Shown one piece after another: positions 28,657-58,766 of a DNA stretch of 64,000 bases. Position 1 is the stretch's first letter. Each line of letters starts with the position of its first letter. The position numbers and the translations under genes were made by a program. Under the pieces are notes generated by a model, which saw nothing but the letters and a program-made list of their open reading frames with translations, was not told the origin of the DNA and searched no databases. The stretch is from NCBI GenBank assembly GCA_951406725.2, contig OX597839.1:34844001-34908000 (forward strand), written 5' to 3'. The stretch comes from Octopus vulgaris. Taxonomy: Eukaryota.

Positions 28657-28711
28657 ATGATGCTTCTTCTATATTGGAGTATTTTAGTCATAATATTCCC
28701 TCAGTTAATAA
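28657..28711 (+). CDS. Secreted PLAT-like repeat protein, exon 1 (signal peptide MMLLLYWSILVIIFPQLI)
   Basis: Kozak-like CCTACCATG, hydrophobic stretch, GTAAGT donor at 28712 (phase 1), in frame with the next exon. Confidence 0.75.
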
Positions 28712-30814
28712 GTAAGTTCTCTTTATTATTTATTTGTGCAATCATTGTGGTTGGCTGTGGATGATTAAAATCTTTCTTTCCTTCATCTGTGTTTCCCATT
28801 CAGTTGCAACTGCATTAGTATCTTGAACAAGAACCTCAACTCAACTAAATTTTCACACTTTACCATTCAAACTAGCCATCCAATACATATATATATATAT
28901 ACACCAACTGGCCATGTCCAGACTCTCACACCCACCATGCAATGCCATTCTAAATCTAAACAATCACATCTTGAAATCTTGAAGCTACAAGAGAATGAAT
29001 AATTAATTCAAGGCAACGTGAATAAACAAGGATTACATTTGATAGAATAGTCCGAATGCTAAAGAGTTAAAGAGTGGAATTTGGTAGGTGGCGCTTCTGT
29101 GGTCGTTTCATTGTAGAGTCCATTTCTGTCCCTGGTCTTGGGTGGTCAACTTCATCTATCACTTGTTTCAACCTTTTTCACACCAAACTACCTGAGACTG
29201 TCTCTGGTTGTTTGATATAAACTTCTTTGTTTGATATAAACTTCTTTGTTTGATATAAACTTCTAAATCAAAACCTTCTGTCAAAATTTCATATTAATTT
29301 CATTTCCAAACACTAGTTTAATAATGATAAAAGTTATTTTACTAAATTCTTCCTTATTTCCAAACATTTATTGAAGCAAAGATAATCTGTTTCAACAGAT
29401 ATATTCCAACAAAAATGTTAAGATGAGCTGAATTAAGGCATCATCATCATCGTCATCATTTTTCATCTGTTTTCCATACGAGCATGGGGAGGATGGTTTG
29501 ACAGGATTCGGTGAGCCACAGGGCCACATCCATCCCTCATGGCAGATTTGGCATGGTTTCTATGACTGGATGCTCTTCCATCAAAATTTCCTGGTAAATC
29601 ATATATTCCAATCTCCAGTATTGATAATGACTATATTCTTCATTATTTTCAAAACTAATTGACAATCGCAATGTTTTCCAGCAGAAATATTCTAAGAAAT
29701 GGTTCAATGCTATCACCTGACTCTTGAAGAATTTTTGCACAATTCCCTCTGCTGCAATCAATCCTTTCAACTTTGTCTTCCTGTCTGAAGACAACTCATT
29801 TGCATCATTCTTGGGGACTTGGAATATTTTTGGCCAAAACTAAAAATCTTACTCTCAATCCCAATTACCTTGATAAACTCCCTTTTAAATTTATTGATCT
29901 GAAATCAATTTAATTTTATAAAAACAAATCAATAATATATTATTTCTTGATTATTATCTCTCCAGTGTTAAGGCACATGACCTAGTTGCCAGGAAACTGG
30001 GTTCACAATCATAAGTTCATGGGTTCAATTCTTGGGGGTTGGGGGGGAGACATTGTGTCCTTGAGCAAGGTGCTTCATTTCATGTCACTCCAATCTACTT
30101 GGCTGAAAACAAGTACCAACCTAATGCTAGTACTTTAATTTTATCAGCTGAGTACACTGGGGTTTAGTGTTGGTACAGCCCTTTTTCCTTCCAGCAAGGC
30201 TGTGTTGTGTGTGTGTGTAAGAAATAAAACCACCTAAAATCATTTTTGGTGTTCATATTAATCTGTCAAATGTAATGCTTAATTTGCTCACCTTATTCAG
30301 GTTCCAGAGGAGTGTCCACAATATTTGCTTGCAACTTTGTGTGTCTGTGTTTGGTCCCCTAACATCGCTTGACAACCGATGCTGGTGTGTTTACGTCCCC
30401 GTAACTTAGCAGTTCAGCTTAAGAGACTGATAGAATAAGTACTAGGCTTACAAAGAATAACTCCTGGGGCCGATTTGCTCGACTAAAGGTGGTGCTCCAG
30501 CATGACCACAGTCAAATGACTGAAACAAGTAAAAGAGTAAAGAGTAAGATTTATTTGGAAATTTTGTCAGTGGGTGCTTTATATACCACTGGTTTATAGT
30601 TAAGTAATTTTAGCTGAACTTGCTGAGTTAATTTGACTTTTATGGGCAGGTAAATTTAATTAACAGGTGTAAAAGCAACAACGTTATTTTTCCTGCGCTC
30701 TTCTTGCTTATTTTTATATTTTTCTATTTATTATCAGTATTGCTTAATATGTTTTGTTAAAATTGCTGTTTCTTTTCAGATATCATCAGAAAAAGGTAAT
30801 TAAAAGTCATTAAA

Positions 30815-31895
30815 ATGACAGATCTATCAGACTTTCAAGGAGGTCAAATTGTTGGTACTCGTATGGCAGGCACCAACGTAGCGAAAACAGCCAAAATGTT
30901 TGGTGTATCAAGAATTACTGTCTCAAAAGTAATGACTGCCTTTGAGAAAGTGGAAAAAAGCTTTCTTGTCAAAACAAAGTCTGGAAGAAAACCAAAACTT
31001 TCAGATAGGGACCACCAGAATCTTATACGAATTGTTAGAAAGGATCACAAAAGTACAGCTCCTAAAATTACTAAAGAGCTTAATGACCACCTCCAGAACC
31101 CAGTTTCCACAAAAACTGTTCGCTGGGAGCTGCACAAAGCTGGATTTCATGGGAGGGCTGCAAGCAGAAAACAACTTCTTTCAAAAACAAAAGTTGCAAA
31201 GCAATTAGAATGAAGTAAAAACCTACAGAATTGGTCCCTAGAGCAGTAGAAGAATGTTATTTTCTTAGATGAACTATCCTTTACCTTATTTCTGACCACC
31301 AGCTGAGTATACGTGTGGAGACAGCCTCAAGAATCATTTGACCCAGACTGCCTTCTTCCAACTGATAAGCATGGAGGAGGATCTGTGACGATCTGGGGAG
31401 CTATATCTTGGAAATCTGCCGGCCAAATGGTTTCCCTTTGTGGCAGAATTAATAGTCAAGACTATTTATGCATTTTATCTGATCAAATTCATCCTATGGT
31501 TGTGGAACTGTTTCCCTCCAGAAACAATATTTCAGGATGATAATGCACCAATTCACACAGCTAAAGTTGTTACTGAATGGCACGAGGAACATTCTAGTGA
31601 AGTTGAACATCTTATCTGGCCACCACAGTCCCCAGATCTCAATATTACTGAACATTTATGGTGCATTTTAGAAAAACATGTACAGAGTCGATATCTTCCA
31701 TCATCATTATTACAAGAACTGGAGACTGTTTTAGCTGAAGAATGGACAAAAATTCCTTTGGAAATAATTCAAACTTTGTACAGGTCCATACCTCAAAGAA
31801 ATTTATGCTGTAATTACTGCCAAAGGCAGTCCTATCCTATATTAAAATAAATTTGCCTGAAATTTTAAGGTATTTCCATTATTTTGTCCAACCTC
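30815..31895 (+). pseudogene. Tc1 (DD34E) transposase pseudogene in intron 1
   Basis: HTH region with SGRKPKLS, KHGGGSV.IWG, FQDDNAPIH and SPDLNITE across three broken ORFs; right TIR at about 31862-31893. Confidence 0.92.
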
Positions 31896-32310
31896 TACAC
31901 ACACATATATAAATAATAATAATAATAATAATAATAATAATAATAATAATAATAATAATAATGAAGGAATATTATTCCAAACTTACAGGGAAAAATTCAA
32001 TTTAGAAATACTAGATCAAATTTCACATATATATATATATATATGTATGTATGTGGGTATGTATATTTATATATATGTATATATGTATATATATATATAT
32101 ATATATATACATACATATATATGTATACATACATATATACATTCATACATACATACACACATACATATACATATATATGTATATGTATATATTTATATAT
32201 ATATATATGTGTGTGTGTGTGTGTGTGTGTATGTATATGTGACCGCATGTGTACCATTGACGATTTTTTTTCCTCCGTCTTCCCTTCTCTGGATCTTTCC
32301 TTTTCCTATG

Positions 32311-32343
32311 TTTCTGACAAAGAGCTCCGCTCGAAACGTAAAG
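32311..32343 (+). ncRNA. Decayed minimal hammerhead motif
   Basis: UUU-CUGACAA-A-GAGC(UCC)GCUC-GAAA-C-GUA-AAG; G8A is consistent with CpG decay. Confidence 0.45.
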
Positions 32344-57045: not shown

Positions 57046-57777
57046 ATTTTATGGAAGTGAATTTCATACTTCAAAATGACTGGGTTCACACTTTCTGTGG
57101 GGGTCAACTTTACTTCATGTTCTCTTCTGAAACATACTTATAATGAGGGATAGCCCTGGGTCTGACCCTCCCCCACTACCATCCTCACTACACAACCCAC
57201 CCTCTCACCTCTCAACTCTGTCTCCTCTTTTTCTCAACCCTGTTGCTAATCCACTGCCACCACCACGGTGATGGCACTGGTGATGACGATGTTGCTGATC
57301 ATGATGATGATATTTGCGGCAGTGTTACATTTTACAGTGACAAGCAGTGGGAGCAGTGTGTAATTGCTGACCGTTCTCTTCATCCGCAGGACTAACTCCA
57401 TATCCATATCGTCAGTGGAGAATGTTAAGTCACTCTCTTAATTAAGATCAAAGATGCTAATAACCCGTTGAGGGATATTTCTGGTTCGGAGAAAAGGCAA
57501 GCAGTAGAATCTCTTTATCAAACTTGTGAGATATAAATATTATTGATCGATTGATCTATTGTCTGATTGATTGACTTGAGATAAGATTTGAAGGAAGAAG
57601 GAATTTAATGCTTCCCCTGCCGGCACCCCCCCCCCCACTTCCAGCAAAGAACATTGACACAAACAGAAAGTGCTAAGGACAAACGACACCAACCCCTTGA
57701 CAAGGAACCGAGGCAACTCATAATCAGAGCTCAAACAGCTGAGGTATCTTAACGATATTTCAAATCTATTATTTCAG

Positions 57778-57877
57778 ATAAGTCTGATCAGCAATTACAC
57801 AGAGTATAAATTCAAAAGAAATGAAGAAAGCAGTACTCACAATTCCTCGGTGGCAGGATTCTCTCGAATAACAAAAG
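57778..57877 (+). CDS. Exon 9 (ISLISNYTEYKFKRNEESSTHNSSVAGFSRITK)
   Basis: TATTTCAG acceptor, AAG|GTATTT donor, phase 0 to 1; matches the pattern of exons 3, 5 and 7. Confidence 0.72.
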
Positions 57878-58715
57878 GTATTTGGTGTATCTGAACTTGT
57901 CTCATTCAACCCTTTTCTTACCATATTTCTGTTGCAATACTCTGTCTTTGTTGCAATTAGTTTTGAAAAAATAGGAAGAATTTAGTAAAATAGCTTTGCC
58001 ATTATCAAGATGGGGTTTGGGGAAAAAAGGAACATATAGGCGCAGGAGTGGCTGTGTGGTAAGTAGCTTGCTAATCAACCACATGGTTCCGGGTTCAGTC
58101 CCACTGCGTGGCAACTTCGGCAGGTGTCTTCTGCTATAGCCCCGGGCCGACCAATGCCTTGTGAGTGGATTTGGTAGACGGAAACTGAAAGAAGCCTGTC
58201 GTATATATGTATATATATATAAGTGTGTGTGTATATGTTTGTGTGTCTGTGTTTGTCCCCTTAGCATTGCTTGACAACCGATGCTGGTGTGTTTACGTCC
58301 CCGTCACTTAGCGGTTCGGCAAAATAGACCGATAGAATAAGTACTGGGCTTACAAAGAATAAGTCCCGGGGTCGAGTTGCTCGACTAAAGGCGGTGCTCC
58401 AGCATGGCCGCAGTCAAATGACTGAAACAAGTAAAAGAGTAAACGAGTATGAAATTTGGATGGAAGGTTTTAAGTGATGACCATTCACTTTAAACAGGAT
58501 ATTTGTATCATAGAAGGAAGGGCAGTGTTGAACAGGTTAGCATGAAAAGGGTTAAATGTTTTGTATTTGGTGTCTCAAGTGTTGATGACCATTTCTCGTC
58601 CATTTACAACCCTTCCCTTGCTCCAACCATCAGGTCCATCAAGGGTAGCACGAGTTTCATCCATAAACAAAACTGTTGAAAAGCCCAACTTCTTGTTATC
58701 TTCTGCCCATTTCAG

Positions 58716-58766
58716 ATGATTTTGTGTGTGTATTGTGTTCAAAGGAACGATATCACTGGTTTACCT
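58716..58766 (+). CDS. Probable exon 10 start (DDFVCVLCSKERYHWFT), cut by gap
   Basis: CCCATTTCAG acceptor; the phase-1 frame is open up to the N run. Confidence 0.55.

What the first reader, a model, noticed from the sequence alone, without database searches (positions are those of the whole stretch)
28657..58766. Hidden 10-exon gene: signal peptide plus four tandem divergent PLAT/LH2-like domains
Seen: exons 28657-28711, 32693-32886, 36840-36930, 39287-39492, 42674-42758, 45007-45239, 50447-50540, 55392-55615, 57778-57877 and 58716 onward splice GT-AG into one stop-free frame of about 444 codons. Intron phases alternate 1,0,1,0. Each repeat is a long exon starting xxW-x-(V/I/L) plus a short exon with (V/I/A)x(L/V)...Y, usually with two Cys. 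There are many NxS/T sequons and a likely signal cleavage after TKA. Inference: exon-pair duplication built a secreted or surface glycoprotein whose beta-strand pattern resembles PLAT/LH2 lipid-binding domains. The repeats are highly diverged, so it may be a lineage-specific, fast-evolving family. The ORF track shows only fragments of it.
Basis: partly seen in the sequence, partly recalled or inferred. Interest (0 to 1): 0.8.

Follow-up and report, generated by a model that had tools for sequence, protein, structure and literature searches.

The report
Octopus receptors built from PLAT domains
This is one copy of an undescribed, octopus-restricted family of cell-surface proteins that stack lipid-binding-type PLAT folds outside the cell, vary fastest at their tips and carry signalling-type tails, the layout of recognition receptors.

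Summary
Exons 1-9 are real: GT-AG, phases 1,0,1,0, and identical to an uncharacterised Octopus vulgaris gene model. Exon 10 (58716) has no support. The closest relatives continue into a transmembrane helix and a tyrosine-motif tail; that exon is not in the window, and an assembly gap follows exon 9.

AlphaFold2 plus structure search supports the PLAT/LH2 fold for repeats 1, 3 and 4 (best Z 8.8, 8.7, 10.3); repeat 2 is inconclusive. Pfam finds no PLAT.

The family looks octopod-restricted: 27 hits among 1.84 billion representatives, the 16 named all Octopus or Argonauta, on at least three chromosomes. The neighbouring O. vulgaris model differs at 26/189 residues in repeats 1-2 but 2/202 in repeats 3-4. 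Tails are enriched in tyrosine motifs (29 versus 12.6).

Best reading: a variable recognition receptor, working like Hydractinia Alr or snail PTC proteins but built from PLAT modules. Expression, tissue and ligand are unshown.

The parts
28657..28711 (+). Exon 1: ATG and signal peptide, ends in phase 1
32693..32886 (+). Exon 2: long exon of repeat 1 (PLAT-like fold, best Z 8.8)
36840..36930 (+). Exon 3: short exon of repeat 1, Cys99/Cys104, variable loop between sister copies
39287..39492 (+). Exon 4: long exon of repeat 2; most divergent between sister copies; fold match inconclusive
42674..42758 (+). Exon 5: short exon of repeat 2, Cys196/Cys206 (each 29 of 29 rows)
45007..45239 (+). Exon 6: long exon of repeat 3 (PLAT-like fold, Z 8.7)
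50447..50540 (+). Exon 7: short exon of repeat 3, Cys302/Cys315
55392..55615 (+). Exon 8: long exon of repeat 4 (PLAT-like fold, Z 10.3); most conserved repeat
57778..57877 (+). Exon 9: end of repeat 4 plus stalk, phase-1 donor; relatives splice from here to a transmembrane exon not in the window
57878..57894 (+). Read-through of the exon 9 donor to a TGA stop, used by public model P0001; no AATAAA/ATTAAA before the gap
58716..58766 (+).
58767..58866 (.). 100-N assembly gap; the transmembrane and tail exons of this copy may be lost here

Best explanation
The gene is the ectodomain-coding part of one member of an octopod-restricted family of type I membrane glycoproteins: signal peptide, usually four tandem PLAT/LH2-fold beta-sandwiches (each a two-exon, phase 1-1 module), stalk, one TM helix and a tail with tyrosine motifs. 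SHOWN: exon chain, family, TM and tail in relatives, predicted PLAT fold for repeats 1, 3, 4, tandem clusters, divergence concentrated in distal repeats. INFERRED: this copy's TM exon is lost at the gap. The distal repeats bind a variable outside ligand (most likely microbial or parasite surface, through the lipid- and protein-binding surface of the PLAT fold). The proximal repeats act as a conserved spacer, homogenised between copies by conversion or recombination. Ligand binding leads to tail tyrosine phosphorylation and SH2-adaptor recruitment. It works like an invertebrate variable recognition receptor (Alr- or PTC-like). Confidence is about 0.85 for the architecture; the score given is for the whole mechanism.
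For: Closest relatives P0004 and P0005 share exon 9 and continue into a TM helix (hydropathy 3.76) and a 74-residue tail with YESL, YDNV, YLKP. 30 of 43 models of 300 aa or more have a TM, isoforms counted apart. Fold: the top 9 of 48,161 chains are lipases, lipoxygenases, Rab6IP1 and alpha-toxin, Z 7.5-10.3, next row 6.0; 9 of the top 10 for repeat 1. Mean pairwise identity rises from 36.5% (repeat 1) to 54.5% (repeat 4). P0001 vs P0004: 26/189 vs 2/202, Fisher p 4e-7; the between-species contrast is not significant, p 0.085. Two O. sinensis models are identical over repeat 3 (0/109) and differ at 6-7 of about 50 sites in repeat 2. Variable sites overlap between pairs, 6 shared, p 0.002. Yxx[LIVMP] 29 vs 12.6 +/- 3.1 and acidic-context Tyr 22 vs 7.9 +/- 2.5 in 14 tails, reached by 0 of 5000 shuffles. 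Repeat number varies between genes.
Against: No tissue or ligand data. P0004's tail has no strict ITIM, and its two main tyrosine motifs are 11 residues apart, outside the ITAM spacing of 6-9 given in PMC9546547. The tail test uses related genes and a motif chosen after seeing them. No nucleotide data for sister copies, so no dN/dS: relaxed constraint or one recent conversion event could give the same gradient. The site-overlap test uses P0046, whose species was not looked up. The trans-species grouping in repeats 1-2 is not significant (AU p 0.073; 4 vs 2 shared derived sites). P0001 and P0004 may be haplotypes or a chimeric model. Z of 8-9 is near the level the tool calls common; Foldseek gave no E below 0.001 for the repeat 1-2 model. 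Repeat 2 is unmatched to PLAT.
Confidence: 0.5

Rival explanations
1. A lipid, lipoprotein or lipase capture and uptake receptor: the PLAT repeats bind lipid particles or lipases, and the tail Yxx-hydrophobic motifs are endocytosis signals rather than phospho-signalling sites.
For: The best structural matches are the PLAT domains of lipoprotein and pancreatic lipases and of lipoxygenases. PLAT domains mediate lipid and protein interactions (PMC8051682; PMC4232524). Yxx-hydrophobic motifs are also sorting signals (recalled).
Against: Does not predict many tandem copies with hypervariable distal repeats. Identity to lipase PLATs is only 11-15%. Acidic-context tyrosines and repeated YxxP fit kinase sites (motif meaning recalled).
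Confidence: 0.2
2. A homophilic self/non-self or adhesion protein, as with Alr1/Alr2: repeats 1-2 bind identical or similar copies on another cell, for example in skin or suckers.
For: Same layout as Alr proteins (tandem beta-sandwiches, TM, tyrosine-motif tail; PMC9546547 passages). Distal variation. A skin chemical stops suckers attaching to octopus skin (cited in PMC9339708; original not read).
Against: Octopuses are solitary and do not fuse (recalled), so selection for allorecognition is less obvious. No expression data link the family to skin or suckers.
Confidence: 0.12
3. A gamete or reproductive-tract recognition protein diversifying under sexual selection.
For: Fast divergence between close species (P0001 vs P0002: 33 differences in 321 residues). 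Rapid evolution is typical of gamete proteins (recalled).
Against: Variation within a species equals variation between species in repeats 1-2, and the family has many paralogues with varied tails.
Confidence: 0.08
4. About this copy only: it is a secreted decoy ending at the read-through stop, a truncated duplicate, or an uncollapsed haplotype of the neighbouring gene, rather than a separate intact receptor gene.
For: No TM exon in the window. The public model ends by read-through, as does O. sinensis P0008. Repeat 4 and stalk are identical to the neighbour. This copy lacks Cys30, present in 19 of 23 rows.
Against: A gap lies 889 bases after exon 9 and explains the missing exon. No canonical poly(A) signal between the stop and the gap. 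All nine exons and splice sites are intact over 29 kb. If it is a haplotype, 14% protein divergence between alleles in repeats 1-2 would itself be striking.
Confidence: 0.3
5. The repeats are a generic eight-stranded beta-sandwich that resembles PLAT by convergence, not descent.
For: No Pfam PLAT hit in 16 members at E up to 1. No solved-structure sequence hit. Identity 6-16% in structural alignments.
Against: Several unrelated PLAT-bearing protein types rank above every other sandwich for three separate repeats and two independent models.
Confidence: 0.12

Closest known systems
PLAT/LH2 domain (Pfam PF01477, accession recalled; lipases, lipoxygenases, polycystin-1, alpha-toxin, Rab6IP1)
   Same: Predicted eight-stranded sandwich superposes on PLAT domains, Z up to 10.6, rmsd about 3 A over 88-107 residues.
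   Different: No sequence-level match. Repeats of about 92-109 aa, shorter than the 120-150 given in PMC8051682. Here tandem, glycosylated, Cys-paired and on the outside of a single-pass protein; PMC4232524 calls PLAT an intracellular domain, although secreted lipases also carry it.
LOXHD1
   Same: Tandem PLAT repeats (15 in LOXHD1; PMC8051682 passages).
   Different: LOXHD1 has no signal peptide or TM helix (recalled) and is single-copy and conserved; this family has 3-5 repeats, a TM and many paralogues, with no detected sequence link.
Hydractinia Alr family
   Same: Clustered single-pass genes, tandem beta-sandwich ectodomains recognised mainly by predicted structure, tyrosine-motif tails, some forms without TM (PMC9546547 passages).
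   Different: Alr domains are Ig folds on single exons; here PLAT-like folds on exon pairs. ITAM/ITIM consensus is mostly not met here. No homology.
Biomphalaria polymorphic transmembrane clusters (PTC1/GRC, PTC2)
   Same: Molluscan clusters of highly diverse single-pass proteins with tandem duplicates; weak TMEM154 and Rifin Pfam hits also occur (PMC10875847 passages; here).
   Different: PTC domains named there are CTL, FN3 and Ig. The weak Pfam hits here sit on the TM region and are below cut-off. No gastropod protein appeared among the named hits.
Polycystin-1 / REJ proteins
   Same: Membrane proteins that contain a PLAT domain (PMC4890752 passage).
   Different: Multi-pass, with one PLAT on the cytoplasmic side (recalled), plus REJ and GPS domains absent here.

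Membership tests
PLAT/LH2 domain | Two four-stranded sheets with PLAT topology, repeats 1, 3, 4 | tested here: met
   Predicted models only: repeat 1 Z 8.8, rmsd 2.8, 88 aligned; repeat 3 Z 8.7, rmsd 3.2, 101 aligned; repeat 4 Z 10.3, rmsd 3.2, 106 aligned
PLAT/LH2 domain | Same topology, repeat 2 | tested here: inconclusive
   About eight strands predicted; best listed rows Z 5.5 or less and not PLAT; only the best alignment per chain is shown, so repeat 1 may hide a match
PLAT/LH2 domain | Pfam PLAT model above cut-off | tested here: not met
   No PLAT row for 4 exons, 5 proteins or 16 alignment members
PLAT/LH2 domain | Lipid, membrane or calcium binding | not testable with these tools
   Needs a binding assay
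LOXHD1 | Many PLAT repeats without signal peptide or TM | tested here: not met
   Signal peptide and TM present in the family; absence in LOXHD1 recalled
Alr family | Ig-fold domains, each on one exon | tested here: not met
   PLAT chains outrank Ig chains; each repeat spans two exons
Alr family | ITAM or ITIM in the tail | tested here: inconclusive
   None in P0004; ITIM-like hits mostly next to the membrane; one Argonauta tail, P0043, fits the ITAM spacing, read by eye
Alr family | Allele-specific homophilic binding | not testable with these tools
   Needs a cell aggregation assay
Biomphalaria PTC | Homology or synteny with PTC genes | tested here: inconclusive
   16 named hits of 27 are all octopod; 10 not looked up, 1 unnamed; synteny not testable
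Type I single-pass membrane protein | Signal peptide, one TM helix, cytoplasmic tail | tested here: met
   For the family: 30 of 43 models. For this copy the TM exon is not in the window

The most novel reading that the evidence does not exclude
Octopods turned the PLAT fold into a shuffled extracellular recognition module and built from it their own polymorphic receptor system, an analogue of Ig-based immune or histocompatibility receptors. Its distal repeats are kept diverse by selection, possibly across species, while proximal repeats are homogenised. It may read hydrophobic or membrane-bound signatures of self versus non-self, such as the skin cue that stops suckers gripping octopus skin.
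Probability: 0.25. Interest if true: 0.88.

Novelty: new variant of a known kind. Interest (0 to 1): 0.62.

Why it matters
Cephalopod recognition receptors are poorly known beyond conserved families, and these genes are labelled uncharacterised in every named record seen. A single-pass receptor made of tandem extracellular PLAT folds was not found in the searches run. If the reading holds, it adds a new building block for variable receptors, shows convergence with Alr, PTC and vertebrate paired receptors, and gives named candidate genes for octopus immune and self-recognition work, testable with existing RNA-seq and population data.

Tried and rejected
RNA support: no RNA holder was listed. 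Three guessed-RNA runs (X1, X2, X5; 3 of the 21 guessed-RNA rows) had no cover on exons 3 and 4, and their signal lay on interspersed repeats. This is no evidence for or against expression. Only 36790-39815 was laid. DNA run X19 covered all 30 bins, with a 514-base contig over exon 4 carrying 21 differences; contig depth could not settle allele versus paralogue.

No whole genome was held, so the neighbour's position and the gap were not examined.

Sequence searches that gave nothing: Pfam (only sub-cut-off, mostly TM-region hits), solved structures (one row, E 2.1; none), ESM Atlas (no usable hit). The word-based search with the widest alignment returned only its first row, so it says nothing about squid or other molluscs.

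Profile comparison between repeats: 0 of 6 pairs significant, best E 0.031, probability 1.6%. Foldseek on the whole model gave only poor multi-domain alignments; the viral library gave nothing at E 0.001. The homodimer prediction for repeats 1-2 gave no answer, score 0.00, alignment not used.

Trans-species grouping: support 95/89 in one tree, 90/89 in a smaller one, AU p 0.073; not claimed.

Gene identifiers: six were absent from paper texts, and six from the supplements of two octopus transcriptome papers (one file unreadable; bioRxiv supplements closed). Earlier scan notes: none.

Rejected: exon 10 as a zinc-finger-like end; the Vitellogenin label one source gives P0012 (no such Pfam row).
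Full report
1. Observation. All nine introns are GT-AG, phases run 1,0,1,0,1,0,1,0,1, and the frame is open for 444 codons. A search with exon 6 returned 3 proteins of 7 candidates. One, P0001 (CAI9741502.1, O. vulgaris, hypothetical, 432 aa), matches exons 1-9 letter for letter and then reads through the exon 9 donor to a stop at 57892-57894. 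A profile of the family scored against all 2707 stop-to-stop frames finds exons 2-9 at E 1e-38 to 3.8e-7, exon 1 at 0.067, and nothing at 58716. Truncated models of relatives read through at the same donors (P0003 after exon 7, P0027 after exon 6, P0046 after exon 3), so intron positions are shared across the family. Exon 10 is one of six comparable open acceptors downstream and runs into a 100-N gap. I reject it. No spliced reads were obtained, so expression of this copy is inferred from conservation, not shown.

2. What it is. The next accession on a sequence of the same length, P0004 (532 aa), and O. sinensis P0005 share exon 9 and continue into a TM helix and a 74-residue tail. These exons are not in the window. 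Searches found 13 relatives among 7374 candidates, and a 16-row profile found 27 among 1.84 billion representatives, scores falling to E 1e-4 without leaving the family. Of the 27, 16 carry names, all O. vulgaris, O. sinensis, O. bimaculoides or Argonauta hians; one is unnamed and ten were not looked up. Contig lengths place O. vulgaris and O. sinensis members on three chromosomes each, with runs of neighbouring accessions. 30 of 43 models of 300 aa or more have a TM helix, isoforms counted apart. Architecture varies: an extra exon pair in P0011, P0014, P0024 and P0026, no repeat 4 in P0034. The two Argonauta genes group together apart from the Octopus genes in midpoint-rooted trees, on long branches. 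Absence from squids and other molluscs is a search result at this sensitivity, not proof.

3. Fold. AlphaFold2 on 16 sequences gave four all-beta domains, pLDDT 77.6. Against 48,161 chains, the top nine rows are lipoprotein lipase, five lipoxygenases, Rab6IP1, pancreatic lipase-related protein 2 and alpha-toxin, Z 7.5-10.3, next row 6.0; they cover repeats 3 and 4. A second look gave 40 such entries at Z 7.7-10.6 before the first other fold at 6.0. That the aligned parts are PLAT domains follows from the domain's named members (PMC4232524) and recall. A separate model of repeats 1-2 (30 sequences, pLDDT 88.3) gave nine PLAT-bearing chains in the top ten, aligned mainly to repeat 1, best Z 8.8 and 8.0. 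Repeat 2 showed only Z 5.5 or less to other folds; since one alignment per chain is shown, this is inconclusive. The tool warns that Z near 7-8 can be a common arrangement, and Foldseek reached no E below 0.001 for this model. The case rests on the consistency of the top ranks. Sequence methods see nothing, and the repeats are not significantly alike by profile. Each repeat lies between phase-1 introns, the form typical of shuffled extracellular modules (recalled).

4. Variation. Mean identity among members is 36.5, 44.3, 44.9 and 54.5% for repeats 1-4. P0001 and P0004 differ at 10/92, 16/97, 2/109 and 0/93 (Fisher p 4e-7). Between species, repeats 3-4 differ at 14/202, more than within O. vulgaris (p 0.0035). 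Two O. sinensis models show the same shape: identical in repeat 3, different at the end of repeat 2. Six variable positions (94, 98, 101, 172, 173, 175) recur in both sets (20 and 12 of 140 positions, p 0.002), using P0046, whose species I assumed from its exon 2. In repeats 1-2 the window copy groups with an O. sinensis copy rather than its neighbour, but the alternative is not rejected. This fits paralogues with conversion of the proximal half, or very divergent alleles placed in tandem by the assembly. I cannot separate these, and I have no dN/dS.

5. Tails. In 14 tails (one model per gene, 51 tyrosines), Yxx[LIVMP] occurs 29 times against 12.6 +/- 3.1 in shuffles, and acidic-context tyrosines 22 against 7.9 +/- 2.5. 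The genes are related and the motif was chosen after inspection, so this is supportive, not decisive. Strict ITIM or ITAM patterns are rare.

6. Mechanism. Most likely the protein stands on a cell surface with four glycosylated PLAT-fold domains in a row; the distal pair binds a variable ligand, and the tail signals through phosphotyrosine. Architecture is shown for the family. Ligand, tissue and signalling are inferred. Rivals are a lipid-uptake receptor, a homophilic self-recognition protein and a gamete protein. The window copy may be complete with its end lost in the gap, secreted, or a haplotype.

7. Comparison. It works like Hydractinia Alr (PMC9546547) and Biomphalaria PTC genes (PMC10875847) but is a member of neither. 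It has the PLAT fold but fails the Pfam test, and it is not LOXHD1 (PMC8051682) or a polycystin. What I saw of papers: passages of PMC10875847, PMC9546547, PMC4232524, PMC8051682, PMC9068888 (no occurrence of 'plat'), PMC9339708 and PMC4890752; supplement searches only for PMC9712504 and PMC11202624; search listings otherwise. Nine searches showed no description of this family. Subscription papers and preprint supplements are not covered and could hold expression data.

8. Verdict. New variant of a known kind; interest 0.62.

Noticed in passing
window 60405-60842 +: Intronless 145-aa ORF of the LRAT family (Pfam PF04970, E 1.6e-28), 1.5 kb past the gap; a lipid-modifying enzyme type next to a PLAT-fold gene, but across an assembly gap.
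   Followed up: partly
window 55866-57043: 28-bp minisatellite, 42 copies, 93% matches, inside intron 8.
   Followed up: no
window 49917-50280: 101-bp tandem repeat, 3.6 copies, just upstream of exon 7.
   Followed up: no
window 14440-15042, 25451-25906, 19986-20318, 21788-22120, 30800-31850, 48013-48774: Frames that look like remnants of non-LTR retrotransposons, Tc1/mariner transposases and a Penelope-type element (names recalled, not tested).
   Followed up: no
window 57878-57894; P0001 and P0008: Both models end by reading through the exon 9 donor with near-identical short ends; either a shared annotation artefact or a conserved soluble form.
   Followed up: partly
P0011, P0014, P0024, P0026: A duplicated unit made of the short exon of repeat 1 and the long exon of repeat 2 creates a hybrid fifth repeat, suggesting the half-domains are interchangeable.
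   Followed up: no
P0012/P0025, P0015/P0029, P0019/P0020: Isoform pairs with and without the TM helix from one gene, pointing to membrane and soluble forms by alternative splicing.
   Followed up: no
P0039, P0010 tails: Repeated acidic LY-x-x-P motif, three copies in one Argonauta tail and one in an Octopus tail.
   Followed up: no
window 38330-38452 +: The end of model P0046 matches a frame in intron 3 of this gene, so P0046 comes from a very close sister locus.
   Followed up: no
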